From: Raja brachyura
Lineage: Eukaryota
Assembly: GCA_963514005.1 (NCBI GenBank)
Contig: OY740807.1
Coordinates: 29,636,001 to 29,700,000, forward strand
Direction of reading: 5' to 3'
Length of the DNA: 64,000 nucleotides
The notes under the pieces were generated by a model. The model was not told where the DNA came from. It made no database searches and saw nothing but the letters and a program-made list of their open reading frames with translations. This document shows positions 1,789 to 64,000 of the stretch, one piece after another (the stretch's first letter is position 1; each line of letters begins with the position of its first letter). The position numbers and the translations under genes were made by a program.

Positions 1789-2769
1789 AGGTGGATAGAA
1801 AGACTAGGGAGAGTGGAGGGAGGGAGAAAGACAATGGTGTATTGGATAGGAGGAAGTATTCAATGAAAAGAGTAACTTGTATTATAGCAGCAACTGAATT
1901 TGAATAAAGAACCATTCTATGCAACTAGATTTCAAAGCTTGATTTTTATGAATTGGTTATATGGACTGCAATGTTTTGAATGCCTACAGATATATTTGGT
2001 GCAGTTTAAAGTATCTTATGATTTGGGTTTTATGTCATTTATTGCATTTCTCTTCGGTGCAATAATAATTCCTGTAAAGGTTATTGGACAAGACCGTTCT
2101 CCCAGCTGTAATAATCGAGATAGATATATGCTCCAGAACCATACATGCCTCCAGCCAATTTGTTTCAATATAGTTACAATGCAGAACTAGACATGACTCG
2201 AGCAAAAACTCACAGTGTTGGAGGAACTCAGCAGGTCAGTGAGCACCTGTAAATCATAGACTGACGATGTTTCGGATCGGGACGTTTCTTCAGACTTTAG
2301 CTAAGTTGTACCATACACTGACATTACATCACATTATGGAAATTTGTCCAGCTCTGTTTAATTCACAAAGTTTACACAGACAGATAAATCCAATCCAACT
2401 AAGTGACACCAAACCAAGCAACTGTAATTCATTAGCAGAACTATAGACGTTATTATTGACAGTAGTATCTAGAGGCACTCACTCACCATTAACTGCCTCA
2501 TTGGACATAGGTTTACAAAATGAGATAAAATGCTGGGGTAACTCAGGGGGGGTCAGGCAGCATCTGTTGAACATGGGTAGGTGACCCGTCTTCAGACTGA
2601 TTGTGGGTGGAGATAGAAAGACTTCCTTTGATCATGAGATTAGATGAGGGATGTCCACAATTTTCAGTTATATTCACAACTCTGTAAACAAAACAATCCA
2701 CGTCTACATGTAGCAAGACCGGTCAGCTTTCAGGCACGGGATGTTAAGTGGCAATGATATCCATGCCAC

Positions 2770-4474: not shown

Positions 4475-4776
4475 ATAAGTTATAGCAGCAGAATTAGGCC
4501 ATTCGGCAGATCGTCCCTCTCAAATACATTCTTCCGCCTTCTCCACATAACCCCTGACACCCGTACAAATCAAGAACCATCAATGTCCACCTTAAAATGT
4601 TCTATTGACAGCCTCCACAGCCAATTAATTCCGCAGATTCACCACCCTCTGACTAAATAAATTCCTCCTCTTCTCCTTTCTAAAGATCTGTCCTTTTATT
4701 CTGAGGCTATGGCCTCTGGTCCTAGACTCTCCCACTAGTGGAAACATCCTCTCCACATCCACTCCATCCAGGCCTT
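4475..4776 (-). mobile_element. CR1 3' end fragment
   Basis: Contains the motifs ttaggccattcggc, agattcaccaccctctgac and cctagactctcccactagtgg shared with the CR1 at 285-842. Confidence 0.75.
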
Positions 4777-6791
4777 ATTGTTCCTTTAAGCAATCCACGC
4801 AAACCATCCACCTTAAATGCTGAATACTGGATGAGATTTTGGTTATCACATTACATTGTTATCACATTCTCTCAGTGTATTGGCTTTTGTTATCTACTTT
4901 ATACTTCTGTGAAGTCTCTTTGAGTATGTTTCTGTTGGATGTTTTGTGCAAATGCCAGCTGTGAAATATGAATGAGATGCTTGTAATTGTATGGAATTAA
5001 TAAATTGAGAATTGGTGGATACGATAAGATCTCTGAGACTGAGCAAAATTACAGATTTCATATACCCCTTCATCAACCTGAGAAACATTAGAGTTTTAGT
5101 CTGTAATGTTCTCCGATATCTTATTTGACCTTTATTGCAAGTTTTTTCAAGGTGGGTGAAATCTGTCGACTGTGTCATGATAGCTTTGAAACGAATTGTA
5201 TGTATTGTGATGGAATTGAAATAACTGAAGTGTGCCATGATGGGACTGAAATGGTTGGAATCTGCGATGGCAGAGTGTTGCTGTTACGTCATTACAAAGA
5301 ACGTTTCAAAGGTCTACTCATCATTGACAGATACTGGATTTGATTCAGATTATGTTATGACTGAAGAATCTCTGAATCATAATTTCACCTGTTTCAATAA
5401 TACATAATTTCAATGTAAAACAATCACATTTTTATCATTCTGAGCAACACAATTCTCTTGGTATATTTTTTTCACGTTCCAATCAGCAAACATAAAATTG
5501 TAGGGTCTTATGTAGATCATGGGAAGTGGCCTAAATTGTGGAAAGGTGTAGTGTTTGGTGTATTGTTTGCTCAGACGATCTCTGGAGAGAGATTGAATTT
5601 TATCAGTATTAGCAGAGCAAATAAAACATTTTAAATAGCAGCTATTGAAAATCTGAGATAAAAACAAAAGGAGCAGGTCGGGTTGTATCTGACGAAAAAG
5701 AAACGGAGCTTATGTTTCAAAGATCTGTTTTTTTTTAATTCCCATTACGCAGCAAACAGTTTAAGATGTTAAGCAGCAGCCTCTTCCTTCTACAGATGAT
5801 GAGTTTGACGCACGTATGTTAATTTTCACATAATGCAAGAAGCTGTCTCTGCTGACTTCATCTGGAGCTTCAAACTCTTTGTGACATGCATCACATTCAA
5901 TGGCTGTTACTTGGACATACTGGAGAACAATACCATTGTCTTGGGGTGTATCTAGGGAACCTATTGTATTAACATAGCTCCAACTGGTTCTCAGTTCTCC
6001 AAGATGTCCCTATACACTAGTTGTGAGATTTGTAAATAGTCCCAATCACTGCTTCAGAGCCCATTTGCAAACCGCATGGAACAAAAAAGGTGAACCTCAT
6101 GTTTTCTCTCTTTCCTTTTCACTATGGTCTCATCAAAGATCCCTCGAAAGCTCGCAGGAAGCTATTAAAAAAAAAATGCTAGATTGCCTTTTTGTAAATT
6201 CCTAATTCTTCGGAGCTGGGAGGGGGAACAATGTATTCCCAATTCTACTCCTCTGTTCTATTCTGGTTTGCTGCCAAATTCATACTCGTATTTAATTCAG
6301 CTGGGTTTTCAGTTGTTCTGGATGGCTGTAGTTGCTGGCAATCTACAAAATTGATTCCTGAGTATTGCAGACCATCTGTGGCAGCATAGGCGGCTTGTGT
6401 TTACTGCAAACTGAGGGACTGAGGTTTTCTCTGTGCAGGAAGGTGACATTGTACAATGGTTGGAGGTGGGACTGAAGTAATTGCAGCCCCCTCTGATTTT
6501 CTTTTTATTGTACAGTTCTCAACGGAAATTGGTGGCTCATTCGAGGAATTGCAGTCATCCAAAGCAAAGCGTGGCACATTGTACACAGGGACCTTTCCTC
6601 AGGCCATAACATTTGGCTGTTGCATTCCCATAGTGAATGTGATCAGTTGTGCACCTCCTCTGATTAGCAAATCTTGTAATGAAGAAATTTAGACGAATAT
6701 ATTTCTCCAATTACATCTTGAGGGAGAACTAAAAATATTGTTTTAAATTCCCACTATAAAGAAAACAGTTTAGGATGTTAAGCAACTCTTA

Positions 6792-7092
6792 AAGCCCTGT
6801 CCCACGGTACGAGTTCATTCCAAGAGCTCTCCCGAGTTTAAAAAAAATCAAACTCATGCTAAGCAGGGAGAATGAACGTAGTGGGTACGTCGGAGCTCGG
6901 GGACGTCACTTAGTGGCTCATAACGCTAACAGCAGGTACTCGGGAAGACTCGTGAAGATTTTTCAACATGTTGGTGTTTTTGAAAAATGTCCACGAGAAC
7001 CGACGAGTGGTCATTACCGTAAATTTCCGAGTTCGAATCAGGGCAAACTCGGGAGAACTCTTGGAATGAACTCGTACCGTGGGACAGGGCTA
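6792..7092. mobile_element. MITE, PIF/Harbinger-like (family A)
   Basis: Long TIRs (agccctgtcccacggtacgagttcattccaagag... and ...ctcttggaatgaactcgtaccgtgggacagggct) and a TTA duplication at 6789-6791 and 7093-7095. A second copy lies at 58756-59084. Confidence 0.85.
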
Positions 7093-7383
7093 TTACTTTT
7101 ATAGATGATGCGTTTGATGCATATGTGCTTCAGCTATGTAAAAATGCACAGCATAAATGTGGCATCAGCAATCAAAATTATTTAAATCTGCTGTCCACAA
7201 AGCTTGTATATCTAATTATATATTTAAGGAATGTATTTGTCGACTTCATCCATGAAAATACCAGGTCCTATCTATTTCTGATATGAATGCAGTACTTTAG
7301 TGATACTTCTGAATTACCAAATTTTTATGAGCTAATAATTCACATGCTTTAGTTTTCTTGATTAGATGGACAGACCGCATGGT

Positions 7384-7510
7384 AGTCTGAAGAAGGGTCT
7401 TGACCCGAAACATGCCCCATTCCCCTCCAGAGATGCTGCCTTTCCCACTGAGTTACTCCAGCATTTTGTGTCTATCTTTGGTTTAAACCAGTATCTGCAG
7501 TTTCTTCCTG
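7384..7510 (+). mobile_element. Short Penelope-derived (pseudo-LTR-like) repeat with hammerhead-like core
   Basis: Reads ctgaagaagggtcttgacccgaaac...agatgctgcc...ctgagttactccagca. It is homologous to the 3' end of the Penelope element at 61990-62120. Confidence 0.75.
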
Positions 7511-7761
7511 AGCAGCATGATACATATGTTTTCTACTTGTTGGTCAGGCATATATATATCCAGTGTGGGTCAAGAGGAGGTGTTGCTTGAGTGTAAATCA
7601 TCTGCCCAATCATATAGGTCAAGCTGATGAATCCAAGGCTTGCGTGTTACTTTCCAATCTGTCTGAAGAGCCCCAGGTATGGCAAATATCATTTCATACC
7701 CGAATACATTTGGTCCAATTTCCATACGTGATGCTGCTGATTTAAAGTAATGTCAGTATAT

Positions 7762-8005
7762 GGTAGAAACCAGGGACTGGTTTACTAAGGAAGGGGACAA
7801 ACTGCCAGAGTAACTCAGTGAGTCAGGCAGCATCCTGGAGAACATGGATGGGTGTCAGGTCAGGACCCTTCCTCAGACAGAAGTGCCACCTCTAGCTTTC
7901 TTTCCACCCATCCCTGTAATCAATCTGAAGAAGGGTACCGCCCAGAAGTAATTTATCCAGTGATGCTGCCTGACCCACTGAGTTACTCCAGCATTTTGTG
8001 TCTTT
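7762..8005. mobile_element. Inverted pair of Penelope-derived short repeats
   Basis: A minus-strand copy (gagtaactcag...gcagcatc...cccttcctcagac) is followed by a plus-strand copy (tctgaagaagggt...gatgctgcctgacccactgagttactccagc). Confidence 0.7.
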
Positions 8006-9073
8006 CCGTGGGTTATATGGTACTAGTCCAAACAACGAGCTCGTGGACAGTGATGACAACGAGGTTGCTCTTCAATGAAAGAAGAAAAAAAAAGAATATT
8101 AAACAAATTCATGTGAAATGTTCTGGATCACACTTTGTATAATGTTTACTGCACAGTCATTAGCAGCAATCACGTTTCAAGCTATCCTTTGAGAGCATAC
8201 TTGTTGCACTGATTTCCTATCAGATCTGTTTAAGAACCTGAAATTTATGCAGCACCTTTCACCAATGAGATGTTGGGACATCCCGGAGTATTGCGTATTT
8301 TTAAGATATATCTACTGTTGTAAGTTAAGAAATACAGCTATGAATTTTCATACAGATATTCCACAAACAGCAATGTGATAATGACCTGATAATCTGTATT
8401 TGTGTTGTTGACTCTGGGAGCTATTAACCAAAGCCTTGGGTAGAATTCCCTTACTTGTAGAATATTGTCCTGGGGGGTTTTTTCATCCACGTAAAAAAAA
8501 AATGGAATCTCCAACAGTGCAGAATTCGCTAAATGCTACATCAGGTTCGGGTAAGATGTTATGCTCAAATATTTGGAAAGGTGCTTGTACCTACAGCTTT
8601 CTGATTCAGATGAAAGATAAAGAAAATGCATTGCCCACAAGTTCCCTTAATGCAAATTATACCAAAAATATAGATAACTATGAAAGAGAACACATTAACT
8701 TATTGCCTTTTCAAGTGCAAACATAATAGGTCAAGATTATTCCAGCCAATACTTCATGTAGAGGCTGGTTTGAATCCACAGTAAGATGCCCTCTGTGCAA
8801 AATGAGCTTGGGTGCTTGTAATTAGTTCTTGATGGTCATGAACCTGTCAAAAACATGCTTTTAATTTAGCACTAACTTTAATTAAATCGGTGGCCACACT
8901 TTAAAAGCTACATGGATGGTTTGAATTAGAAGAATTTCATTGATATAAAGAGAAAAACTTCTTCCAAGGCTCTGGCATAACAAGTTGAGGATAATTTTAA
9001 CTGATCCTGTGATAACGCAGTGGGGTCAAAGTGAATATACATCTATGGGTGCTATTCTCCATGGACATAATTG

Positions 9074-9136: not shown

Positions 9137-9252
9137 TCGTCGTAACGCGTTGCTGCGACGGCTGGCGGTGGAGCGCGCTCCTCGCCAGCCCTTCATAAGG
9201 GGCCACGGAGGTGAGTATTCCACCTTTAGTTGGTGGTCCTTGTTGTCTGATT

Positions 9253-11010
9253 ATGTCTTGCAGCAAGGACATGGATGGGAGTTCGAAGGGCCGGAGGACG
9301 TCAGGACGAGTTCGCCGGTCAACAGTTCCGGGGCCTTTACCATCGGCAGTACCTGCAGCGCAGGCCGGGACTCAGGCAGAGATGTGGGTAAGCCCTGTGT
9401 TCACAGGTCCAGATCCGCCAGCACACCACAGCTCGGAGGAGTTCGACGAGGAGGAGTGTGGTGTGCCGCCAGAGCAGGGGGACCCTGCCATGGCAGTCAG
9501 GTTGTCAGCGGGCTCGCTGGCGACCTCGAGCAGGGCGCGTGCCGTTGCACGGCCTGTTCCACTCAGCCCTCCGAGAAGGGGGAGGGGAGGAGCCCAAAAG
9601 CCTAACCCTGTTAGGGCTAAGGCATTGCCTGTCGCGGAGGAGCGGTCAGGTTCCAGGGCGAGACCCGGGGCGGCTGTGAGGTCCAGCCGGCACACCCCGA
9701 CTCTCGACGCCGGGACGGGTCGGTTGAGTCGGGTCTCGTCGCGGTCGCCGAGCCCCCCATGGATGGGTGGGCGGCACCATGCGTCGGCAACGTCCACGAT
9801 GTGGGCAGCCGGCAAGACTGCGCGGGCCCCAGGCAGCCATGCTTCGGCTGGTGCCGACACCTCGCCGCATGTGCCCTTAGTGGCAGCGGCTTCAGCTCTC
9901 GCTAAACGGAGGCGATTGAACACGCCCGCGCAGGAATCGCGCAGTTTCGCCTCGGCGGCTGTTAGCGACAACTACCGGCACCGGCAGGGCCTCGACGAGG
10001 TGCGGGCCGATGACAGGAGCCCGGTTTTCTTTTCAGAGCCGGAGGACTCCGACCACCTGAGTGTTCAGGGTGAAGGGCGTATTGACCGTATGGAGCGGCT
10101 GCTGGAGCTCCTGCTTCAACGTCAACAACAGCAGGGCAGCAACAGGCACAGGGCGTCTTCACCAACATCTACTATCAGCCTGGAGCAGCACGAGGAGGAG
10201 GTTCTGGTGGATCCCGTACCACCTCCGGTGGAGGTGCCAGCGGAGGAACTTTTGGATGTGGCGACCAAATTCGCGGCCCCACATACGGCTGGTCTTCCTC
10301 TCAATTCAAAGCTGGCAGCCACAGTGGACTTTCTTAATAATCAGGTGCTGCAGGAAGAAGTCCTCATCCAGGCTATGAGCCGTCACAAGGCTCCATCAAA
10401 CTGCAACTCCCTCAACGTGCCTGTGGTCAATACGCCAATATGGGGCAACATCAGTGCGGCTATCCGTCAACAAGAGCTACAATTGCAGCGGATCCTGAAA
10501 CTCCTCACGGCCGGTATTACCGCCTTTGCGCGGTCGGTGGACGAGGACGAGCTGAATTTGGACCAGGAAGATGCTCTGGCCTTATTGTGCGCGACCCAGC
10601 ACGAAATCAACGGGTTTCGCAAAAACAGCATCCGCCCAGCACTCAACCCGAAGTTTGCAGGATTGTGCAAACCACCGCCGCCGCCGCCGCCCCGTCAGCT
10701 CTTTGGTGAGGACCTCTCGAAGAGAGTCAAAGAGCTTGACGAACAAGCCAAAACGGTGGGGATCATGCGCTCTAAGAGTGCCCCCACACCGTCCGGCTCA
10801 AAAGCTCCATACATTTGCTCACGAGGGTCGGCCAGTGCCTCGACGAGGACTCACCCTCTAGCTCCACAACGACAACAACACCAGAACCAGCACCAAGGGT
10901 CTTTTTTAGGACAGGGTCGGCAGAGATCTTTTTGGAAATCGAAGACGCCGCGCCCTCAAGCCAACCCAGCACCTCCACGGCCACCCACACGTGTCAAGGA
11001 CCGCCGGTAA
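9253..11010 (+). CDS. DIRS ORF1 (gag-like)
   Basis: Uninterrupted ORF; the track starts it at GTG 9211, and the first in-frame ATG is at 9253. It has a low-complexity S/R/P-rich N-terminus and a C-terminal region (VPVVNTPIW...RKNSIRPALNPKF...LFGEDL) in the expected gag position. Confidence 0.8.
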   Translation: MSCSKDMDGSSKGRRTSGRVRRSTVPGPLPSAVPAAQAGTQAEMWVSPVFTGPDPPAHHSSEEFDEEECGVPPEQGDPAMAVRLSAGSLATSSRARAVARPVPLSPPRRGRGGAQKPNPVRAKALPVAEERSGSRARPGAAVRSSRHTPTLDAGTGRLSRVSSRSPSPPWMGGRHHASATSTMWAAGKTARAPGSHASAGADTSPHVPLVAAASALAKRRRLNTPAQESRSFASAAVSDNYRHRQGLDEVRADDRSPVFFSEPEDSDHLSVQGEGRIDRMERLLELLLQRQQQQGSNRHRASSPTSTISLEQHEEEVLVDPVPPPVEVPAEELLDVATKFAAPHTAGLPLNSKLAATVDFLNNQVLQEEVLIQAMSRHKAPSNCNSLNVPVVNTPIWGNISAAIRQQELQLQRILKLLTAGITAFARSVDEDELNLDQEDALALLCATQHEINGFRKNSIRPALNPKFAGLCKPPPPPPPRQLFGEDLSKRVKELDEQAKTVGIMRSKSAPTPSGSKAPYICSRGSASASTRTHPLAPQRQQHQNQHQGSFLGQGRQRSFWKSKTPRPQANPAPPRPPTRVKDRR

Positions 11011-12939
11011 CCACGGAGGTGAGGGGGTCTGGTTCTCTCTTTTCTCTCTGTTTAACTTCCCATGTTGGTGGTCGTTTACGGTTGTTTTTGGATGCATGGG
11101 GTAATTTTACTGGTGATGAGTATGTGTTGCGGAATATTCAGGGGCATAAAATTGAGTTTATTAATGGCGACATTCCTCCATCCCAGCACATGCCTGGTCG
11201 TACGTTCAAATTGTCTGCTGCAGAACAGGCAGCAGGTTACAAGGAAATTTTAGGTTTGGAACAGAAGGGTGTGATTGAGAAAACAGTGCATGAGCCAATT
11301 GAATTCGTTTCGAACATATTTACTAGACCTAAGAAGGATGGAGGCTGTCGTGTCATTATTGATCTAACCCGTTTGAATACGTTTGTAACATATACTCATT
11401 TTAAAATGGATACGTTTGAAACAGCCAAATCATTGATTTCTCATGGCTGCTTTATGGCATGCATTGATTTGAGGGATGCATATTATTCAGTATCCATCCA
11501 GAAAGATGATAGAACGTTTTTGAAATTTATCTGGATGGGGCAACTTTGGCAGTATAAGGCTTTGCCTAATGGGCTTACTACAGCCCCTAGATTGTTCACT
11601 AAATTGGTGAAGCCAATCATGGCTTATTTGAGACAACGACATCATATAGTTATGGCCTATTTAGATGATCTTTATTGTGGGCCACACCCTGCAATTGGCT
11701 GAACAGGGTGTTGCAGCTGCTGTCAATATATTTCAACAATTAGGATTCATTGTCCATCCAGAGAAATCAAAGTTCTGCCCTGCCCAGGTAATTAATTACC
11801 TAGGGTTCACGGTGAACTCAATGAGCATGAGGATAACTATACCAATTAACAAAATTGAGGAAGTCACTAAGATGTGCAGAGATTTAATTGGCACCAATAT
11901 ACCATCGATTCGGCATACAGCCACAGTAATTGGCAAGTTAGTGGCTTTGTTTCCGGCAGCACGATATGGACCTTTGCATTATCAGAATTTGCAAAGAGCT
12001 AAAATTACTGCGTTAAAATGGAACGCTGGTCATTACGATCGATCTATGCAGCTGCCGTCCGAAGCGATAACTGAGTTGCAATGGTGGGTGTGTCACATTA
12101 GCAACTCATTTAAGCCTGTCAGGGAGGCTAATCCGGTGGTATATTTACAGACTGATGCAAGCTCCAATGGCTGGGGAGCTACTGATAATTGCTCTAGTTG
12201 TGGGGGTAGATGGGACACCCTTGAGGCATCGATGTTGTTGACTCAAGGGATTAACTATTTGGAGTTGCTGGCAGCATTCCACGGACTTCGTGCATATTGT
12301 TCCAAGCTTGTTGGAGCACACGTCCGTCTCCAAATAGACAACACCACAGCTGTGGCATATTTAAACCATATGGGTGGTACCAGGTCAGTTTCGTGTGACA
12401 AATTGGCTAACTCAATTTGGCTCTGGTGTATTCAAAGAGACATTTGGATTTCAGCTACCTATTTGCCAGGTGAGCTTAATACTGTGGCGGACACCAGGTC
12501 ACGCAAATTTAATGACAACATTGAATGGATGTTGCATCCTGAGATTTTTGCTAAAGTCACAGCCAAATTTGGTAAACCGGACATTGACCTTTTTGCGTCA
12601 CGGTTGAACCATCAGGTACCAGCCTACGTTTCATGGGAACCAGATCCTGGGGCAATAGCGCTAGATGCATTCTCGCTGGACTGGGGGAATTGGGTTTTCT
12701 ATGCCTTCCCTCCGTTTTGCCTCATCAGTCGGGTATTGCGAAAGATTCAGGCAGATGCTGCCAAGGGCATCCTTATTATACCCGACTGGCCCACACAGCC
12801 TTGGTATCCGGTGGTCTTTGACATGCTCAACGAACCTTGGGTCCTTTTGAAGGGTTGCCCACAATTGGTTACTCACCCTGTGTCAGGGGAGCCACATCCC
12901 TGCCATGGCTATTTAAATTTGTTGGCTTGCAGGTTCTGA
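10815..12939 (+). pseudogene. DIRS ORF2 (RT, RNase H, methyltransferase-like domain) with one frameshift at about 11669
   Basis: RT motifs: FTRPKKDGGCRVIIDL, IDLRDAYY, LPNGLTTAPRLF and YLDD. RNase H motifs: QTDAS, INYLELLA, DNTTAV and NTVAD. MT-like motifs: IDLFAS and YAFPPF. The frame shifts right after YLDD. The true start codon is uncertain. Confidence 0.92.
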
Positions 12940-12977
12940 ACGGGCCGTTAGTCCAATACGGCCTCTCGGCTCGGACC

Positions 12978-13916
12978 ATGGATACCATCGGGGCGTCGTG
13001 TCGAGAGTCCACAAGGCGAAGATACCGCTCGCATATTAAGAAGTGGGAAGCCTACTGCAGCCGCTCTCGCATCACGTACGATGACGTGACAATAACCGAC
13101 GTCCTGGAATTCCTCGCGGGGTTGCACCATGATGAACACTTAAGTTACAGTGCCATCAACAGCGCCAGAAGTGCGCTATCATTCTACCTCAAGATTGGGG
13201 TAGGATCCAACAGGCTAGTGTCCAGACTCATGCGGGGTATATTCAATATGAATCCGCCTACACCACGCTATAATATCACCTGGGATGTCAGGGACGTATT
13301 AACCCTGCTCATGACGTGGTCTCCCATGGAAGGGCTCCAACTGGACCAACTCACCATGAAGCTGGTGATGTTACTAGCGCTGACTTCAGCTCAGAGGGTA
13401 CAGACACTACACAAACTGCGTGTCGACAGAATGACATCTACCCCTACAGAAGTAGTCTTTTTCGTTGACGAGCTACTAAAGCAGCATAGACCTGGGTGCA
13501 CAGGGCTGCAGCTGAAGTTCCCGGCATACCCCGCAGATGCTAGGCTATGTTTAGCCTCACATATCCGCCACTATGTCAAGGTGACGGCACGCATCAGAGG
13601 AATGGAGAGATACCTGCTTGTCACTCATAAGAGACCTCATCATCGAGTGACAGTCCAGACGATATCCAGGTGGCTTCGAGTCGTCTTGGGTAAGTCAGGT
13701 ATCGACACTAATGTGTTCAAGTCTCATTCCACCAGGGCTGCATCGACGTCAGCGGCGAGGGTCATGGAGGTGCCCATGGACCAAATTCTCGCCACAGCAG
13801 GATGGGCGAATGAAGCTGTGTTCCAGCGTTTTTATAACAAGCCTGTTGCTGCTCCTCTACAGTTCGCAGAAGCCGTGCTGAATGCAGGTCAAGAACGTGG
13901 AGATGTCCCCGCATGA
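12978..13916 (+). CDS. DIRS ORF3 tyrosine recombinase
   Basis: The frame is open from 12837, and the first ATG at 12978 is in accATGg context. Catalytic pattern: AQR...K...HSTRAAS...GW...FY. Confidence 0.93.
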   Translation: MDTIGASCRESTRRRYRSHIKKWEAYCSRSRITYDDVTITDVLEFLAGLHHDEHLSYSAINSARSALSFYLKIGVGSNRLVSRLMRGIFNMNPPTPRYNITWDVRDVLTLLMTWSPMEGLQLDQLTMKLVMLLALTSAQRVQTLHKLRVDRMTSTPTEVVFFVDELLKQHRPGCTGLQLKFPAYPADARLCLASHIRHYVKVTARIRGMERYLLVTHKRPHHRVTVQTISRWLRVVLGKSGIDTNVFKSHSTRAASTSAARVMEVPMDQILATAGWANEAVFQRFYNKPVAAPLQFAEAVLNAGQERGDVPA

Positions 13917-17135: not shown

Positions 17136-17964
17136 ACTGATTGTATTCATGTATGGTATATCTGATCTGTTTGGATAGTATGGAAAAGTAGATAGTTTTC
17201 CCTCTACCTCTGCATATGACAATAATAGACAAACCTAAGCCTAAGCCTTTCAACGGATTTACCAATGGTATGATTTATCACTGAAATGGTCACAAACACA
17301 ATTTATTTCAGATTACATTGATTTTTCAATCACTGAGCTCAGAAACAGCTGGGAGAATATGAAGCCCCTTTCTGGATGCAAGAGATAAATCACGATGGGA
17401 TGCTCCTTGTGCATAAATCATGGCACAAGCCAGACATAAGCCTTTGGGCTGGTGTCTGCAAGCTTGCACAAGCAAATTCAGCATTCTAAGACCTTGGAGC
17501 CTCTGACCTTGGCACTGTGCATTTCTTAAATAATATTGAAATAGATTGCCTCCCAACATCACACCAGCCACAATGCAAGCTAGATTCAGATTCAGGAACA
17601 GCTTCTTCCCTGCTGCTACTGAGTGGTCCTCTCATAAACTAAGGGTGTATTCTTGATCTTGCAACCCACCTCTTTGCAGCCCTTGCATTTTTTAAAAAAT
17701 TGCTCTTTTTATGTAGCTGAAAACAATATTCTACACATCAGATTTGACTCGATAACACGCAAACTCTTGCACTGTATGTCGGTACTCGAAGCTAACTCAA
17801 TGAGGAGATACTGGTTTCTTGCTGAGCCATCTCTTCAATCAGTTGTGCAGGTGTGCAGGTTAATTCCCGGGATGGCGGGACTGTCATATGCTGAGAGAAT
17901 GGAGCGGCTGAGCTTGTATACTCTGGAATTTAGAAGGATGAGAAGGGATCTTATTGAAACATGT

Positions 17965-17992
17965 CTGAAGAAGGGTCTCGACCCGAAACGTC
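17965..17992 (+). ncRNA. Minimal type I hammerhead-ribozyme-like motif in a Penelope-derived insertion (about 17963-18058)
   Basis: Reads CUGAAGA-A-GGGUC-UC-GACCC-GAAACGUC: a CUGANGA box, stem II, GAAA, a palindromic ACGU minimal stem III and a GUC triplet. Activity is not shown. Confidence 0.65.
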
Positions 17993-18098
17993 GCCTATCT
18001 CCTTCGCTCCATAGATGCTGCTGCACCCGCTGAGTTTCTCCAGCCTTTTGTGTACCCTAAGATTATTAAGGTTTTGGACATGCTAGAGCAGGGATCTG

Positions 18099-19512: not shown

Positions 19513-19633
19513 GGGGTCGGAAACTTTGTTCTGCATAGGGGCCAGGACGCATGTCTGTGAGCGGATGGCGGGCCACATCTATCACATGTACACATAGATC
19601 CTGCCCCGGATGGCAGGCGTGTTCACAGAAGGT

Positions 19634-19757
19634 ACTCAAAAATGCTGGAGAAACTGGTGAGGCAGCCTCATGCAATCTTTGCATGTCTCACCCGCTGAGT
19701 TTCTCCAGCATTTTTGTCTACCTTTGATTTTTCCAGCATCTGCAGTTCTTTCTTAAA
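19634..19757. mobile_element. Penelope-derived inverted short insertion with 16-bp TSD
   Basis: cgtgttcacagaaggt is duplicated at 19618-19633 and 19758-19773. The internal arms aaaatgctggagaaact and agtttctccagcatttt are inverted. Confidence 0.75.
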
Positions 19758-21009
19758 CGTGTTCACAGAAGGTGCGCGGTCGTGCCGGTGGCTTTGCGCA
19801 GGATACGGTACAGCCAGAGCATGGTGGGCCGGAAGATTACGGGAAAAAAAATCCGCCTGCATGCTGGATGATTTTGGGTTATCTTTGGGTGCCGACCCCT
19901 GCGCATGTTCCCGATGTTAGGGGAGTCCAGAACCAAGGGCCACAGTTTGAGAATAAGGGGTAAGGCATTTAGAACACAGATGAGGAAACACTTTTTCACA
20001 CAGAGAGTTGCGAGTCTGTGGAATTCTCTGCCTCTGAGAGCGGTGGAGGCCGGTTCTCTGGATACTTTCAAGAGAGAGCTAGATACGGCTCTTAAAGATA
20101 GCGGAGTCAGGGGATATGGGAAGAAGGCAGGAACGGGGTGCTGATTGTGAATGATCAGCAATGATCACGTTGATGGCGGTGCTTGCTCGAAGGGCCGAAT
20201 AGCCTATTCTACTGCACCTATTGTCTATTGTTGACTGCTGGTGGTAAACATTTCAAATAAGCAGACAACCACTCAATCAATGAGTGCAAGTTAATGATGC
20301 ATTAAAATTCCAATAGTAGCAAAGTAAATTTAGCTCATTATGAGATTGATTAAAATATTTAAGTTCCTGAGGGCTTTTAACGAGGTGGATGTAGAGGTTA
20401 TGTCCTCTTGTGGGTGAATCTGGAAATAGGGATCACTGTTTCAAAATAAGACGTCACTTATTTAAGAGAGAGATGAGCCTTTTTTTTCTCTCAAGGGAAT
20501 CACGTGTCTTTGAAACTCCCTTCCTCAAAGGTTGATGGAAGCACAGTTTGAATATTTTTAAGGCAGAGGTAGATAGACTATTGATGAGCAAGGAAGTGAA
20601 AGATTACTATGGCCAGACAGACATGCAGAGTTGAGGCTGCAATTAGCTCAGCAGTAATCTTATTAAAAGGTGGAGCAGACCTGAGGGGCTGAGATGTCTA
20701 ATCCCAATTTGTCCGTCTATTGAATAATTAAAAAAATCGAGATATTTGCCTCTCAAAAAAACATAAACCGATTCACTGTGAGTGGACCTGGGAATCGGCA
20801 GCCAAACAGTGGACTGGGCTTATAATGAGTGTAAGAGGACACTGTAGCAAAGCAAGAAGCAACCTTTTCAAGAATTCCACTTTTTCAGTGGGATCAACGT
20901 TCTTTGCAATCAATGAATTGCTTCTGAAGTGTGAACATGGTTTTGTTAGCTGATCTGATGCCAATTTGCATCCAGATTCCACAAGCAGCAAAAAGAAAAA
21001 ATAATAAAT

Positions 21010-21337
21010 AAGACACAAAGTGCTGCCTTAACTCAGTGGGTCAGGCAGCATCTCTGGAGAAAATGGATAGGCAACAGTTCAGTTCGGGACCAGTCTTCAA
21101 ACCGATTATAGTAGGGGGACAGAAAGCTGGAAGAGAGGAGAGGACAGGATGGGATCACTTGCCAGACTTTGACCCAGCCACACTCTCTTCTCTTCCCCTA
21201 CTACAATCAGTCGGAAGAGGTTTCCTGACCCGAAATGTGCCTCTATATGTTCTCCAGTGAAACTGCCTGACCCCTTGAGTTAATCCAGCAATCTGTGTCC
21301 TTTTTTGTAAACTGGTATCTGCAGTTCCTTGTGTCTA
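21010..21337. mobile_element. Inverted pair of Penelope-derived short repeats (degenerate)
   Basis: gacacaaagtgctg...gcagcatctctggaga on the minus strand is followed by gtcggaagagg...gacccgaaatgt...ctgcagttcc on the plus strand. Confidence 0.65.
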
Positions 21338-24322: not shown

Positions 24323-27030
24323 TGTATATGTGGGGGGGGATCTGCATGTTGTACTGAATCATAGGCTTGATACGACAAGTAAAAAGAAGAATAAGAACCA
24401 GTTAACTAAACTACTAAACGCCACCTGTGAAGAATTAGGTTTTCTTGATGTCTGGAGGAATTTTCACCCTCTAGAAAGAGACTATACACATTACTCAATA
24501 CCGCACTCAGTTTAATCCAGAATAGACTATTTCTTAATGCAGAAAGAAGACTGTTATAGGGTAACGGGTTGCAGAATTGGTGTGACAGATGTATCAGACC
24601 GTAATGCCATATACTTACTGTCAAATGGACAGTAGAAGGAAAAACACAGTGTGGCGATTAAATGTTGGAATACTGAATGATAAAACATCTGTTAATGATA
24701 TTAAATTGGAAATCAAAACTTATCTAGAGGAGAATGACAATGGGGAGGTGGACCCATCCATACTATGGGACTCTTTGAAGGCTGTAATACGAAGTAGGTT
24801 AATAGCTAGGGCATTACATATTAAAAAGGCCGTAATGAAAACATTTAATAAGTTGATAACAGACCCGAAGGATTTAGAACAGAAGTACAAAAATAATAAG
24901 AACCAGAGAACTTATAAGCAAATAGAAGATTTGAGGGGACTAATGGATGGAATATTGGGTCAAGAGGTGGAGAAAAAAGCAAGATTTGTAAAACAGGCAC
25001 ATTATGAGCTTGGCCCTAAATCCACTAAAATACTTGCCCGAAGGCTACGCAAACAACAGGCTGACAACACCATACACAAAATTAAGGACCCCTGTACACA
25101 GAATTTGAAGAGTGATCCAAAAGAAATAGAATATATCTTCCAAGAATATTATAAAGAATTATATACACAAACCTCTACAGTAGATGGGGAATCAATGAGG
25201 ACTTTTTTAAGTACAATAGATCTGCCCTGTATTGGAGAGACACAAAATAAAATGATTACAGCAGAAATATCACTGGAGGAGGTAGAGAAGACAATTGGTA
25301 GGATGAAATCAAACAAGGCCCCAGGCAGTGACGGTTTCCCTATAGAATGGTATAAAATATTTCGGAATGAGCTGAACCCACTCCTTCTGAGAACCTTTAA
25401 CTGGATTATCAAAGAAGGCAAGACACCCCCGTCATGGAAAGAAGCAATTATAACATTAATCCCCAAAGAGAACAAAGACAAGGAAAATTGTACCAACTAC
25501 AGACCGATATCAACTCTAAATGTGGACTATAAATTATATTCTTCATTTATCTCCAAACGATTTGAAAAGTTAATCCAAGATTTAATTGATGAAGACCAGA
25601 CTGGTTTTATAATAGGCAGACAAACACAGGACAGCATTAGAAGAACCCTACATATAATACACACGATTCAAAAGGAAAATACGCGTGCTGTCCTGATAAG
25701 TCTAGACGCGGAAAAGGCTTTTGATAGGGTTAAGTGGGAATTCTTATATCAAACACTAGAAAGATTTGGCTTTACCGAAGATTCAATTCAAGTTATTAAA
25801 GCAATTTACCAGCAACCTACTGCAAGAGTAAAGGTGAATGGGTCCTTAACTGAGAGATTTGTGTTAGGAAGAGGAACGAGACAGGGATGTTGTCTTAGCC
25901 TTACCCTGTTTGCTATATATATTGAACCATTGGCTCAAGCGATTCGTCAGGATAGGGAACTGAGGGGAGTAACTATAAGAGACAGAGAACATAAAATTGG
26001 CCTTTTTGCAGATGATGTAATGGTGTATCTCACGGAAGTAAACACCTCATTTGCAAGGATAATGGGGATCATAGAGAAATTTAATTTTTATGCAGGATAT
26101 AAAGTGAATATTCCAAAAACTCAAATCCTATTCAATTGTCCTCCAGAAGAAATCAAACAAAATTATAATATTAAGTGGGATTCAAAATCAATCAAATACC
26201 TAGGCGTACATATAACAAAAAATATATCAATGTTGTATGGGGCCAATTATAATCACATCAACCAAAACATAAGAAAGGATTACAATCTCAGAAGAAGAAT
26301 GGCATCATATGTGTGTAACACTACAGACATCCACTAATTCACAAAATTGGAGAGAATTTAACTGGAAAATTTTGATTTGTTTCTTTATTACACCTAACAT
26401 AAAAAAACAAGCAAATTCTAAGGCAGCAAACATGCTGGAGGCAATGGGGTCAAACAGACGCAAATCATGCACATATCTTCTGGAGTTGCCCAAAAATAGA
26501 ACCATTTTGGGACAGAGTGAATTCAGAATTAACGGAGGTATTAGGATATATAGTCTCCAAGAAGTGTTCCATTTTATACCTGGGTAATATAAATACAGTG
26601 GTGCTGAAGGAAGATCATTACTTGGTTAAAATCCTACCACAGATGGCAGAAAGGCCATTACAAGAAACTGGCTTGCAGCGGACACACCCCGACTTAGACA
26701 ATGGTTAGACATAGTACAGGACATATTTGTCATGAAGAAAATGACATATTCTCTAAGAGTGAAAGAAGACGAGTTTAACAGAAAATGGCAGAAATGGATT
26801 AGGTATAGAAATAAAGACATCAACACTGTATAATTGTACTGACAATAATGTAAGTTATTGGAAAATGTTTTAATATGAAAATAGTTCTGTATCCTGCATC
26901 ATTAATTGTAAACTGAACCCTTCCACCTACACTGTTGTACGTTTCACTATATTGTTGTATTTTTCTTTGTTATATTTGTGTTTTATTTGTGTATACATAA
27001 AAGCAATAAAAATTAAAGTGGAAAAAAAGA
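24323..27030 (+). mobile_element. L1/Tx1-clade LINE, 5'-truncated within the endonuclease
   Basis: APE C-terminal motifs (GGDL, SRIDYF) and RT motifs KAPGSDG, YRPIS, DAEKAFD, GTRQGC, FADD and KYLG (ORF 24589-26337). AATAAA and an A tail follow. A 12-bp TSD aactattagcaa lies at 24311-24322 and 27031-27042. Confidence 0.92.
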
Positions 27031-28074: not shown

Positions 28075-29240
28075 ACTTTAGGTAGCCCCATCATTCCCTC
28101 CCTCTCTCTCTATCCCTCCCCTACCCAAGTTACACTACCTTCTCATTTTCACCTTACAAACAGCTTACAATGGTCTGTTTTCTTTATCATCTTTACTTTT
28201 TTGTATATCTTTCATTCATCGTCCTTTAACTCTCCACATCATCGTCTATACCTCTTGTTTCCCATACCTCTAACCAGTCGGAAGAATGAATGAATGAATG
28301 AAAAAGTTTATTGGCCAAGTATTCACGTACAAGGAATTTGCCTTGGTGCTCTGCCCGCAAGTGACAACATGACATACAGTAACAGTTAGGAATGATACGT
28401 AAATCATTAAACATTAATAATAAAACATTATTGATTAAACATGTGAATTAAGTAAAATACCAGAGCAAAAGGAGGCTACAGAATTTTGGTTATTGAGTAG
28501 AGCTACTACTCGTAGAAAAAAGCTGTCTGGCTGTGGCAGCTTTGACAGTCCGAAGTCGCCTTCCAGAGGGAAGTGATTCAAAGAGTTTGTAGCCAGGGTG
28601 AGAGGGGTCAGAGATGATCTTACCCGCTCGCTTCCTGGCCCTTGCAGTGTACAGTTCGTCAATGGAGGGAAGGTTACAGCCAATAACCTTCTCAGCTGAT
28701 TGGACGATTCGCTGCAGCCTCCGGATGTTGTGTTTGGTGCATGAGCCAAACCAGACCTTGATGGAGAAGGTGAGGACAGACTCTACGAAGGCCGTATATA
28801 ATTGGACCATCATTGCCTGTGGCAGATTGTGCTTCCTCAGCTGCCGCAGGAAGTACATCCTCTGTTGGGCCTTTTTGACTGTGGAGTCGATGGTAGCCCC
28901 CCAATTAAGGTCCTTGGAGATGATGGTTCCCAGGAACTTAAAAGACTCCACAGATGTGACTGTGGTGTTGTTGATGGTGAGTGGGGTGAGGGGAGGGGGA
29001 GTTCTCCTAAAGTCAACAATCAATTCCACTGTCTTGAGAGCATTGAGCTCCAGGTTGTTGCGATGGCACCAGGACGCCAGCTGTGTCACTTCCTGTCCGT
29101 AGGCAGATTCCTCCCCAACCTGGATCAGTCCAATCAGGGTTGTGTTGTCCGCAAGGGTCTCAACCCGAAATGTCACACATACCTTCTCTCCAGAGATGCT
29201 GCCTGTTCTGCTGAGTTATTCTAGCTTTTTGTGTCTGTCC
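28075..29240 (+). mobile_element. Penelope 3' UTR/pseudo-LTR fragment split by a Rex1-like insertion
   Basis: 28075-28286 matches the reverse complement of about 62110-62310. The sequence resumes at 29153 with aagggtctcaacccgaaatgtcac. Confidence 0.75.
28287..29152 (-). mobile_element. Rex1/Babar-type LINE 3' fragment
   Basis: The reverse ORF reads ADNTTLIG...WCHRNNLELN..KTVELIVDFR...FKFLG...KKAQQRMYFLRQL...LPSGRRLR. A (TGAA)n tail lies at 28287-28301. Confidence 0.85.
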
Positions 29241-43280: not shown

Positions 43281-43355
43281 AAACAAAGGAGGAATTGGAA
43301 GAACTGATGACGGATATTAAGAAGACAGCAAATAAGGTCCGCTCCAAGTTAAAGA
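43281..43355 (+). CDS. STX1A: Syntaxin-1A internal coding exon (75 nt, Habc domain)
   Basis: Acceptor tgtctttcag| and donor |gtaagt. It encodes (K)[24 protein letters not shown](S). KEELEELM and KLKS fit STX1A better than STX1B (KQELEDLT, KLKA), from recalled mammalian sequences. Confidence 0.93.
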
Positions 43356-50280: not shown

Positions 50281-50421
50281 TAGGGTTGGTTCAAAAAGGA
50301 GCAGGATGTGTTTCTGAAAAAAAGATTTGATTAACTATAGGGAGAGGGAAGGTGTGTCAGACTAGCTGTATTACAGATGAATAGAGTCATAGTGGATGAT
50401 CGACCAAGTTAATGAACTGAA

Positions 50422-50520
50422 CTGGCTGAAGAAGGGTCTCGACCCAAAATGTCACCTCTCCATGTTCTCTAGAGATGCTGCCTGTCCCGTTGAGTTACTA
50501 CAGCACTTTGTGTCCTTTAA
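50422..50520 (+). mobile_element. Penelope-derived short repeat
   Basis: Reads ctgaagaagggtctcgacccaaaatgtcacc...agagatgctgcc. The GAAA box is mutated. Confidence 0.7.
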
Positions 50521-52685: not shown

Positions 52686-52812
52686 AGTCTGAAAAAAGGG
52701 TTCTGACCCGAATGTTTACTTATCTATGTCCTCCAGAGATTCTGCCTGACCTGCTGAGTTACTCCAGCACTTTGTGAGTTTTTTTGTAAACCAGCATCCG
52801 CACTTCTTTGTG
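52686..52812 (+). mobile_element. Penelope-derived short repeat, degenerate
   Basis: Reads gtctgaaaaaagggttctgacccgaatg...ctgagttactccagcac. Confidence 0.65.
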
Positions 52813-53186: not shown

Positions 53187-53260
53187 GTATTGAACAAAGC
53201 ATAGAGCAAGAGGAGGGACAGAACAGATCCTCGGCTGACTTGAGAATACGCAAGACACAG
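53187..53260 (+). CDS. STX1A: Syntaxin-1A internal coding exon (74 nt)
   Basis: Polypyrimidine tract with acceptor cctcag| and donor |gtcagt. It encodes (S)[24 protein letters not shown]. The split codon A|GT (Ser) joins in frame with exon 43281-43355. Confidence 0.95.
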
Positions 53261-61364: not shown

Positions 61365-61554
61365 GGGGGTACACAAAAGGCTGGAGAAACTCAGCGGGTG
61401 CAGCAGCATCTAAGGAGCGAAGGAGATAGGCAACGTTTTGGGCCGAAACCCTTCTTCAGACTCCTTCGCTCCTTAGATGCTGCTGCACCCGCTGAGTTTC
61501 TCCAGCCTTTTGTGTACCCTCGATTTTCCAGCATCTGCAGTTCCGTCTTTAACA
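61365..61554. mobile_element. Penelope-derived hairpin insertion with 14-bp TSD
   Basis: A perfect 59-bp inverted repeat at 61367-61425 and 61461-61519. The TSD ctcataaagttaac lies at 61351-61364 and 61555-61568. Confidence 0.88.
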
Positions 61555-62090
61555 CTCATAAAGTTAACATCCAGGTTAATCCGGAGTTAATCTTTTGACC
61601 ATTCTATTGTCTTCAACAAAACATTGCCTACTTCAGCCGCTGCAAAAACAGCCATGACTGATCCCTCCTCAGCCCACCTGTCTGTCCAAGCCTGTGTACG
61701 ATGTTTTCACTCCCAGGCCAAATTATTCGATCATCTCTCAGTGCATTTCCTGTTTTCTGCTCCCCATAGATTTCAGATTGACTAAAATTATTTTATTTTT
61801 ACTGAAGAACTCGCAAACTGTTTTCCAGAAATGTTACTAAATCAAAAATTCAACGATGATGAAGAAACAAAGGAAATTAGCACATGTAAGAAAATAATGC
61901 TGTAAAAATGAATGGCACTGGAAATTAGTAACTGCTTGGGCCTGATCATTTCCACGCCAGTACTAAAGGAGGCAGCTGTGGAAATAGTATGTTTAAGAAG
62001 GAACTGCAGATGCTGGAAAATCGAAGGTAGACAAAAAAGCTGGAGAAACTCAGCGGGTGAGGCAGCATCTACGGAGCGAAGGAGATAGGC

Positions 62091-62118
62091 GACGTTTCGA
62101 GTCGAGACCCTTCTTCAG
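62091..62118 (-). ncRNA. Minimal hammerhead-ribozyme-like motif in the Penelope pseudo-LTR
   Basis: The minus strand reads CUGAAGA-A-GGGUC-UC-GACUC-GAAACGUC, in the same sense as the Penelope ORF. Confidence 0.65.
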
Positions 62119-62350
62119 ACTGGTCAGGGATCAGGGAAAAGAGAGATATAGATGGTGATGTGGAGAGATAAAGAACAATGAATGAAAGATATGCAAAAAA
62201 GTATCGATGATAAAGGAAACAGGCCATTGTAAGCTGTTTGTAGTGTGAAAATGAGAAGCTAGTGCGACTTGGGTGGGGGAGAGATAGAGAGAGAAGGAAT
62301 GCCAGGGCCCAAGGGCTGAGGGAGGTGGGAAGGGGAGGAGGCAGCCAGGG

Positions 62351-64000
62351 TTAACAGAATTGAGAAAATTCAATGTTTAAGCCCAGAGGATGCAGACTCC
62401 CCAAGCGGAATATCAGGTGCTGTTCCTCCAACTTGCGGTGTTGCTCACTCTGGCCGAGGAGGAGGCCCAGGACCGAGAGGTCAGATACGGAATGGGAGAG
62501 GGAGTTGAAGTGCTGAGCCACCGGGAGGTCGGGTTGGTTATTGCGGACCGAGCGGAGGTGTTCGGCGAAACGATCCCCAAGCCTCCGCTTGGTCTCACCG
62601 ATATAGATCAGCTGGCATCTGGAGCAACGGATGCAGTAGATGAGGTTGGAGGAGGTGCAGGTGAACCTCTGTCAGACTTGGAAGGACTGCTTGGGTCCCT
62701 GAAAGGCGTGGATGGGGGAGGTGAAGGGAAAAGTGCAGCATCTCTTGCGGTTGCAAGGGAAAGTGCTCGGGGAAGGGGTGGAGCGGGATGGAAGGGAAGA
62801 ATTGACAAGGGAGTTGCGGAGGGAGCGGTCTTTGCGGAAGGCAGACGGGGGGGGAGATGGGAAGATGTGGCGAGTGGAGGGGTCACGTTGGAGGTGGCGA
62901 AACTGGCGGAGGACTATCTGTTGTATGTGCCAGCTGGTGGGGTGTAAGGTGAGGACCAGGGGGACTCTGCCCTTGTTGTGAGTGGGGGAATGGGGAGATA
63001 GGGCAGTGTTGCGGGGTATGGAGGAGACCCTGGTGCGAGCCTCATCTATAGTGGGGGAGGGGAATCCCTGTTCTCTGAAGAACGAGGACATTTGTGATGA
63101 CCTGGTGTGGAACACCTCATCCTGGGAGCAGATGCGGCGTAGACGGAGGAATTGGGAATAGGGGATGGAGTCCTTACAGGAAGCAGGGTGGGAGGAAGGG
63201 TAGTCCAGGTAGCTGTGGGAGTCAGTTGGTTTGTAGTGGATGTCGGTCAGGAGTGTATCACCTGCAATAGAGATGGTGAGGTCAAGGAATGGTAGGGAAA
63301 TGTTGGAAATGGTCCAAGTGTATTTGAGTGCCGGATGGAAATTGGTGGTGAAATGGATGAAGTCAGTCAGTTGTGTGTGGGTGCAGGAGGTAACACCAAA
63401 GCAGTCGTCAATGTAACGGAGGTAAAGGTCGGGGGTGGGGCCCTGGTACGTCGAGAACAAAGATTGTTCGATGTGCCCGACAAAGAGGCAAGCGTAGCTG
63501 GGGCCCATGCGTGTGCCCATAGCTACGCCTTGTGTTTGGAGGAAATGGGAGGAGTCAAAAGAGAAGTTATTGAGGGTAAGGACCAACTCCGCCAGGCGGA
63601 GGAGGGTGTCAGTGGATGGGTATGGGTTGCTCCACTGGTCGAGGAAGTACCGGAGGGCTTTGAGACCATCCTGGTGGGGGATGGAGGTGTATAGTGACTG
63701 GACGTCCATGGTGAAGATGAGAGGATGGGGGCCTGGGGAATGGAATGCGTGGAGCCGACGGAGAGTGTCTGAGGTGTCTTGAACATAGGTGGGGAGGGAT
63801 TTAACAAAGGGGGATAGGATGCAGTCAAGGTATGTGGAAATGTGTTCGGTGGGGCACGAACAGGCAGAGACAATGGGTCTGCCGGGGCAGTCGGGTTTGT
63901 GGATTTTGGGGAGAAGGTAAAATCGGGCCGTGCGGGGCAGGGAAACTATGAGGTTGGAGGCTCGGGGGGGTAGGGAGCCGGAGATGATGAAGTCGGTTAT
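62351..64000 (-). pseudogene. Penelope RT/GIY-YIG ORF with a single in-frame TGA at 62672-62674
   Basis: By manual translation the frame is open from 64000 to 62675. It then hits TGA and stays open through the GIY-YIG domain to TAA at 62351-62353. Confidence 0.88.

What the first reader, a model, noticed from the sequence alone, without database searches (positions are those of the whole stretch)
17963..18058. Dispersed short Penelope-derived insertions carrying a minimal hammerhead ribozyme core
Seen: the motif CTGAAGAAGGGTCTCGACCCGAAACGTC is best preserved at 17965-17992 (+) and 62091-62118 (-). Decayed versions occur near 2266-2295, 7387, 7855-7880, 7924, 21075-21100, 21210, 28278/29153, 50426, 52689 and 61431-61460. 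It comes from the 3' terminal region of the Penelope element at the window end. Established: Penelope-like elements carry minimal type I hammerheads (CUGANGA, stem II, GAAA, palindromic minimal stem III, NUH) that are thought to cleave as dimers. Here there is an extra A after CUGAAGA and a weak stem I. Inference: a very abundant ribozyme-bearing non-autonomous family places several sense copies in the host pre-mRNA, where they could pair up.
Basis: partly seen in the sequence, partly recalled or inferred. Interest (0 to 1): 0.7.

Follow-up and report, generated by a model that had tools for sequence, protein, structure and literature searches.

The report
Penelope leader stubs overlapping hammerhead, promoter
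This 95-base insert in a syntaxin-1 intron is one of tens of thousands of stubs of a Penelope-type jumping gene carrying its known minimal hammerhead motif; the stubs likely arose when the copying enzyme ran off the capped front of the element's own RNA, and they likely do not cut the host RNA.

Summary
Observation confirmed; interpretation mostly not. The 28-nt motif at 17965-17992 has 50,608 exact copies in the genome. It is the known minimal hammerhead of Penelope-like elements; the extra A is a described feature. The family is autonomous and Neptune-type: three loci carry an upstream core, a 1,190-aa RT-GIY-YIG frame and a downstream core. The short inserts match the first ~95 or ~130 nt of that unit. 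Of 103 copies picked by a 3' anchor, 48 start within 6 nt before the core and 2 at the cut site. Starts fall on an initiator-like A with a motif-ten match at +18..+22 and show an excess of a preceding G (14 of 24, 26% expected). Best reading: run-off copies of capped, uncut RNA, not a separate non-autonomous family. The host gene is syntaxin-1 (+). Only 2 of the 12 listed window copies keep an intact core, 1 of them sense. Stem I is 2 bp, the hammerhead fold is disfavoured, the core decays neutrally, and sense copies are not depleted (36:33). Host RNA cleavage is unlikely. This scan reported the run-off reading before, in this and other genomes.

The parts
17963..18057 (+). Short Penelope leader copy without tail, inserted in an older LINE fragment in syntaxin-1 intron 3, sense; no target duplication
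   Evidence: 96.8% to the leader of full-length L171; LINE label recalled
17965..17992 (+). Minimal type I hammerhead core: first box 17965-17971, unpaired A 17972, 4-bp stem II 17973-17984, second box and palindromic stem III 17985-17991, predicted cut after 17992
   Evidence: layout as in PMC4209133
17979..17983 (+). Motif-ten (CGANC) match, at +18..+22 from the inferred start A in full-length elements; overlaps loop II and the 3' side of stem II
   Evidence: consensus from PMC5580651; function inferred
61991..62121 (-). Downstream pLTR leader with intact core and 36-nt tail of the window-end element
62122..62359 (-). 3' untranslated region of the element, pyrimidine-rich, ending at the initiator-like site
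62360..64000 (-). 5'-truncated Penelope ORF: RT, linker, GIY-YIG endonuclease, broken by a stop before the endonuclease; the insertion ends about 100 bp beyond the window with an inverted short copy and an 11-bp duplication
   Evidence: (RVT_1 E 9e-7, just under its cut-off; GIY-YIG E 6e-5)
61366..61553 (.). Fold-back insertion: minus-strand leader copy with a broken core joined to a plus-strand copy starting at +35; flanked by a duplication of about 14 bp; folds as a 66-bp hairpin
   Evidence: -137 kcal/mol, z -19
7384..7507 (+). Decayed leader copy with tail, older subfamily, cleavage triplet lost
50417..50514 (+). Decayed leader copy, G12 lost
52686..52776 (+). Decayed leader copy
28099..29236 (+). 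UTR-bearing copy split inside the core by a later insertion (about 28287-29152)
2219..2296 (-). Decayed leader copy
7808..8003 (.). Decayed inverted pair of an older subfamily
21013..21330 (.). Decayed inverted pair of an older subfamily
19628..19758 (.). Fold-back copy lacking the core, flanked by a target duplication
43281..43355 (+). Host syntaxin-1 exon
   Evidence: (E 2e-8 to syntaxin-1A)
53187..53260 (+). Next host syntaxin-1 exon
   Evidence: motif match and splice sites; no Pfam hit

Best explanation
The insert is a copy of the first ~95 nt of the transcription unit of an autonomous Neptune-type Penelope-like retrotransposon, likely made when the element's reverse transcriptase primed at the leader near the RNA's front and ran off its capped 5' end. 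Shown: each full-length unit carries the leader twice, before and after the ORF; short copies end at two fixed 3' sites 36 nt apart and start sharply just before the hammerhead core; ORF-linked copies are 5'-truncated at scattered points. Inferred: transcription starts at the A three bases before the core; priming at the downstream leader gives long truncated copies and priming at the upstream leader gives the stubs; the template was not cut by the ribozyme; the core overlaps the downstream core promoter, which may help keep it invariant. After insertion the stubs decay neutrally and likely do not cleave host RNA.
For: Full-length loci L171-L173 (3 of 18 fetched): core 163 nt before the first ATG, 1,190-1,191-aa frame, second core about 3.98 kb on. 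5' ends of 103 anchor-picked copies: 48 at -6..+1 of the core, 18 at +2..+12, 5 at +13..+24, 2 at the cut site, 2 beyond it, 2 at -20..-7, 26 further upstream; mode at -3 with 17. Long copies start at scattered places. G before the start: 8 of 14 at -3 (p 0.017), 6 of 11 at -2 (p 0.058), 4 of 21 at 0 (no excess); all subfamilies pooled 14 of 24, 26% expected, p 8e-4 (overlapping set). Initiator-like site and CGANC at +18..+22. Duplications of 9-18 bp in 26 of 56 solo copies, control mean 0.08. Short and long copies share the unchanged haplotype (39 of 102, 44 of 73) and the commonest variants. The same boundary is among the best-supported loose ends in all four public runs laid. Internal priming at two tail sites, extension of both target strands and use of uncut RNA are shown for the anole element (PMC11167929). 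Extra G read from a cap: PMC4038843 passages.
Against: No RNA 5'-end data; the start site rests on DNA junctions. G counts are small and the sets overlap; R2 junctions carry non-templated G without a cap reading (PMC13000458). The second motif-ten element (+27..+29) and the DPE do not match, the initiator match is 5 of 6 in the young subfamily, and the motif-ten match was looked for after the start was inferred. About 3 of the 48 peak copies seem to carry another subfamily's UTR, and 7 ends at -4 are fold-back joints with microhomology. The sample is mostly the first 3-4 Mb of one contig. Short copies are more diverged (1.9 against 1.1 changes), and a few variants occur mainly in short copies (6:1, 5:0, 6:0; p 0.04-0.24, uncorrected). 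The site also looks like a 3' splice acceptor.
Confidence: 0.75

Rival explanations
1. One reading: a non-autonomous ribozyme family whose sense copies pair up and cleave the host pre-mRNA.
For: All conserved core letters and the palindromic stem III are present; the focal copy is sense in a syntaxin-1 intron. Stem I pair 2.1-1.1 is U-A in 16 and U-G in 5 of 22 copies. Dimeric motifs of this kind show low cleavage in vitro (PMC4209133).
Against: 2 intact sense cores 26.6 kb apart against 5 antisense in the gene span; orientation 36 sense to 33 antisense. Hammerhead-like fold -4.0 against -27.1 kcal/mol in host context, stem I probability 0.001; dimer helices -12.7 against -19.7. G12 changed in 8 and C17 in 9 of 76 copies, within the range of other CpG sites (0-15). 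The anole motif cuts only with its protein; 8 of 9 Xenopus dimers did not cut.
Confidence: 0.06
2. Some stubs are themselves transcribed from the internal promoter they carry and are re-copied in trans, as a SINE-like family beside the autonomous one.
For: Stubs keep the motif-ten match and both priming sites; short copies outnumber long ones; a few variants are seen mainly in short copies. The Drosophila Penelope promoter is internal (PMC2377424 passages).
Against: Stubs lose the bases upstream of the start; no short-only haplotype exceeds 3 of 102 copies; 73 long copies may under-sample older subfamilies.
Confidence: 0.12
3. The shared 5' boundary is a splice acceptor or a stall of the reverse transcriptase at RNA structure, not the RNA start.
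For: A pyrimidine tract and AG lie just before the core in all subfamilies seen; in D. virilis an intron ends at helix I (PMC4209133).
Against: No constant upstream exon: the target duplication abuts or lies within 6 nt of the core in 19 of 26 cases. Ends are ragged over -4..+10. A stall would not explain why only 2 copies end in the next 14 nt upstream while 26 pass far beyond.
Confidence: 0.06
4. Copies come from ribozyme-cut or circularised RNA, as proposed for retrozymes.
For: 2 of 103 copies start exactly at the first base after the predicted cut.
Against: 94 of 103 copies include stem II and the sequence upstream of the cut; no head-to-tail arrays among the window copies.
Confidence: 0.02

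Closest known systems
Minimal hammerheads in pLTRs of metazoan Penelope-like elements (Cervera and De la Pena 2014, PMC4209133; parts 1-2 of 4 read)
   Same: Core boxes, unpaired base between 9 and 10.1, G10.1-C11.1, palindromic 15.2-16.2, place in the pLTR, thousands of solo copies tied to truncated elements, pairs on opposite strands.
   Different: Helix I is 2 bp (4-5 bp in most; 2 bp in D. virilis); helix II is 4 bp and nearly invariant across subfamilies; the copy number (50,608 exact) is well above the 4,000-9,000 reported for coelacanth and frog; the shared start just before the core is not described in the parts read.
Neptune/Nematis-type endonuclease-positive Penelope-like elements (PMC8557442, passages read)
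   Same: RT, CX2-5CxxC linker, C-terminal GIY-YIG, partial-tandem pLTR, 30-40 bp tail, adjacent inverted truncated copy.
   Different: About half of the sampled young copies are fixed-start stubs rather than randomly truncated ends; clade not tested by a tree.
Anole Poseidon element PAc (PMC11167929; parts 1-2 of 4 read)
   Same: Two internal priming sites defining the tail; insertion from uncut RNA; both target strands extended, which fits the fold-back pairs.
   Different: There the ORF starts inside the hammerhead; here the main ATG lies 163 nt downstream of the core and beyond the tail.
Non-LTR retrozymes (bioRxiv 10.64898/2026.07.22.740005; parts 1-3 of 5 read)
   Same: pLTR-derived, non-coding, type I hammerhead.
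   Different: Retrozymes are defined as tandem arrays with a ribozyme in each unit; these copies are solo or head-to-head and start at the core.

Membership tests
Minimal type I hammerhead of Penelope-like elements | Conserved core boxes and a cleavable triplet | tested here: met
   17965-17992; descriptor hit, 0 in shuffles
Minimal type I hammerhead of Penelope-like elements | Unpaired base between 9 and 10.1, G10.1-C11.1 pair, palindromic 15.2-16.2 | tested here: met
   features from PMC4209133
Minimal type I hammerhead of Penelope-like elements | Helix I of 4-5 bp | tested here: not met
   2 bp, pairing probability <=0.001; matches the 2-bp D. virilis variant
Minimal type I hammerhead of Penelope-like elements | Compensatory changes in stem II | tested here: inconclusive
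   1 two-sided change in 88 cells over 22 related copies; the stem barely varies
Minimal type I hammerhead of Penelope-like elements | Self-cleavage as dimer or with protein | not testable with these tools
   needs an assay; folding predictions disfavour it unaided
Minimal type I hammerhead of Penelope-like elements | Located in both pLTRs of an RT-endonuclease element | tested here: met
   L171-L173; the upstream core of L173 carries one change
Neptune-type EN+ Penelope-like element | Single ORF with RT and C-terminal GIY-YIG | tested here: met
Neptune-type EN+ Penelope-like element | CX2-5CxxC linker between RT and endonuclease | tested here: met
   3 of 3 full-length frames; criterion; shared with Nematis
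Neptune-type EN+ Penelope-like element | pLTR, 30-40 bp tail, inverted truncated neighbour | tested here: met
Neptune-type EN+ Penelope-like element | Placement in an RT tree | not tested
   no reference sequences were fetched
Non-LTR retrozyme | Tandem units each with a hammerhead | tested here: not met
   window copies are solo or inverted; genome-wide arrays not surveyed
Non-autonomous SINE-like family | Own lineages distinct from the autonomous partner | tested here: inconclusive
   shared main haplotype; few short-biased variants

The most novel reading that the evidence does not exclude
In this lineage the hammerhead core sits at the very start of the RNA and doubles as the downstream core promoter (initiator plus motif ten inside stem II), so the motif is kept partly for transcription. 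Tens of thousands of cap run-off stubs record the transcription start and show that the Penelope enzyme primes on the upstream leader of its own uncut RNA, which would account for pLTR stubs and fold-back pairs.
Probability: 0.35. Interest if true: 0.55.

Novelty: new member of a known kind. Interest (0 to 1): 0.3.

Why it matters
The motif and its dispersal are known, and the host-cleavage idea is weak. The useful part is mechanistic. The role of the Penelope hammerhead and the origin of pLTR and inverted structures are open questions (PMC8557442). The stub junctions give a large natural read-out: where the RNA starts, that it is copied uncut, and where priming occurs. If the core also serves as promoter, conservation of the motif cannot be taken as proof of catalysis. 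Intact full-length units exist in the genome, so each point can be tested.

Tried and rejected
Rfam: no hit in the window. Poseidon label: my first guess, dropped after the linker check. Window-end copy as source: rejected, it is 5'-truncated. Spliced upstream exon supplying a better stem I: no constant upstream sequence; a possible splice donor at the main ATG stays untested. Genome-wide counts of linked 5' and 3' parts were not obtained; boundaries rest on a local sample. Public runs: no RNA holder listed; contigs cannot show RNA ends, and the empty site in relatives was not resolved because the host site is itself a repeat. Covariance model: not built, as stem II barely varies; RNAalifold did not recover the hammerhead stem and gave -6.7 kcal/mol. 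The focal insert folds no better than shuffles (z 0.25). Earlier-findings search by sequence: nothing. Luense et al. on dimeric Penelope hammerheads is not held; only its title was seen. It, and the unread supplements of PMC4209133, may already list this motif. Paper searches showed no report of the fixed start, the cap G or the promoter overlap; the library lacks most subscription papers and Repbase.

Full report
Observation. The motif is exact at 17965-17992 (+) and has one mismatch at 62091-62118 (-); 4 window matches at up to 3 mismatches, none in 100 shuffles. BLAST with the element's end recovers the listed copies and three more. The genome (2.7 Gb; likely a cartilaginous fish, recalled and not tested) holds 50,608 exact copies of the motif and 76,488 of a 23-nt stretch further into the leader. 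No Rfam hit.

Setting. The window lies inside a syntaxin-1 gene on the + strand. Coding exons were found from about -66,900 to +136,200 in window coordinates, with two inside the window at 43281-43355 and 53187-53260 (using recalled motifs, E 2e-8 to syntaxin-1A). The focal insert, 17963-18057, is sense in intron 3, inside an older LINE fragment (label recalled). It has no target duplication and about 1 bp of the host repeat is missing.

The parent. The window end carries RT and GIY-YIG frames on the minus strand. This copy is 5'-truncated; just outside the window it is capped by a partial core and an inverted short copy, and the unit is bounded by an 11-bp duplication. A protein search of the genome gave long open frames. 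Of 18 such loci fetched, 3 (L171-L173) have an upstream core 163 nt before the first ATG, a 1,190-1,191-aa frame, and a second core about 3.98 kb later. All three have the CX2-5CxxC linker that marks Neptune and Nematis (criterion in PMC8557442, passages). The short inserts equal the first ~95 or ~130 nt of this unit; the two 3' ends lie 36 nt apart, the known tail.

The ribozyme motif. It fits the minimal hammerhead of PMC4209133 (parts 1-2 of 4), including the extra base before stem II, which that paper lists as conserved. That paper already reports solo and opposite-strand copies tied to truncated elements. Here stem I is 2 bp. In host context the hammerhead-like fold is -4.0 kcal/mol against -27.1 for the best fold; the dimer helices give -12.7 against -19.7 (energy models omit tertiary contacts and protein help). 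The descriptor passes 2 of the 12 listed window copies, and 11 copies in 264 kb against 0 in shuffles. In the gene span 2 passing cores are sense, 26.6 kb apart, and 5 antisense; all leader-like copies are 36 sense and 33 antisense. Among 76 copies picked by the 3' anchor, G12 is changed in 8 and C17 in 9, like other CpG sites. In 73 UTR-bearing copies core CpG sites changed at 7 of 146 and other CpG sites at 20 of 657; non-CpG 3 of 730 against 20 of 2,993 (a set partly picked by the core). Across 22 hand-picked copies of several subfamilies (of 82 near-complete ones) stem II shows 1 two-sided change in 88 cells; the stem I pair next to the cut is U-A or U-G in 21 of 22. So masters keep the motif, inserted copies do not.

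Where copies start. I took all 103 exact anchor matches held in the first 2.93 Mb of contig C1 (the 100 listed plus 3). 5' ends relative to the first core base: 48 at -6..+1, 18 at +2..+12, 5 at +13..+24, 2 at the cut site, 2 beyond, 2 at -20..-7, 26 further upstream. About 3 of the 48 may carry another subfamily's UTR, and 7 ends at -4 are fold-back joints. ORF-linked copies start at scattered points. A set of 112 core-picked copies gives the same peak (67 within 0-5 nt). The mode is the A at -3. Counting that A as +1, the site resembles the initiator and +18..+22 match the revised motif-ten consensus CGANC; +27..+29 and the DPE do not match (PMC5580651 passages). A G precedes the start in 8 of 14 copies at -3 and 6 of 11 at -2, but 4 of 21 at 0; pooled over subfamilies 14 of 24, 26% expected. 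An added G is read as a copied cap in PMC4038843 (passages), though R2 adds G without that reading (PMC13000458, one passage). 26 of 56 solo copies have 9-18 bp duplications (control mean 0.08), 19 of them within 6 nt of the core, so there is no constant upstream exon.

Mechanism. The anole element primes internally at two tail sites, extends both target strands, uses uncut RNA and cleaves only with its protein (PMC11167929, parts 1-2 of 4). A transcript from the upstream pLTR holds the priming sites twice. Priming downstream would give long, variably truncated copies. Priming upstream would give stubs that end at the cap. Both in one event would give the fold-back and stub-plus-long pairs. 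These steps are inferred. Short and long copies share the main haplotype and the commonest variants, which fits one source; a few short-biased variants leave room for some stub masters.

Comparison and verdict. It is a new member of a known kind: a Neptune-type element with a minimal hammerhead. It is not a retrozyme by the tandem criterion (bioRxiv 10.64898/2026.07.22.740005, parts 1-3 of 5). Also seen in passages: PMC6765202, PMC2377424, PMC8969392. Six searches showed no paper on the fixed start or the promoter overlap, but a key paper was not held. I recorded the run-off reading and tested the G before seeing that this scan had reached it on other DNA; those notes are not independent support, and they prompted the clade check. 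The motif-ten overlap is the only added point. Interest 0.3.

Noticed in passing
L171:2792-2920 (leader to first ATG): An upstream ATG in the leader opens a frame of about 41 codons that overlaps the main ATG; a splice-donor-like site sits at the main ATG. It could regulate translation or form a first exon.
   Followed up: no
window 61366-61553; 152994-153179 in window coordinates (L029): Fold-back joints recur with the second arm starting at +35, where a 3-nt match to a cap-extended cDNA end would allow self-priming. Public contigs show many joints between the same two places with G-A between (joint kind not displayed).
   Followed up: partly
window 61366-61553 and other head-to-head pairs: About 30% of short young copies (32 of 105) sit in inverted joints; they would form long perfect hairpins in pre-mRNA, possible substrates for editing or small-RNA processing.
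   Followed up: partly
G000:C1:685429 and L076:9697-9743: Rare head-to-tail duplications of the core within one short insert; natural candidates for a dimer cleavage assay.
   Followed up: no
L005, L006, L010: Some stubs have 14-18 unrelated bases between the target duplication and the element start; origin unknown.
   Followed up: no
leader +48..+111 (L171:2741-2873): A stem between the start of the upstream frame and the tail is kept in all subfamilies aligned; it may be the protein-binding or priming element.
   Followed up: partly
window 9199-13916 (+): Overlapping long frames (603, 308, 424, 364 aa) with gag-like, RT/RNase H and tyrosine-recombinase-like sequence: a near-intact DIRS-type retrotransposon (label from reading the translations).
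   Followed up: no
window 24586-26337 (+): 583-aa L1/Tx1-like reverse transcriptase frame (label recalled).
   Followed up: no
window coordinates -66,946 to +136,200: The syntaxin-1 gene spans over 200 kb; intron 3 is about 63 kb.
   Followed up: partly
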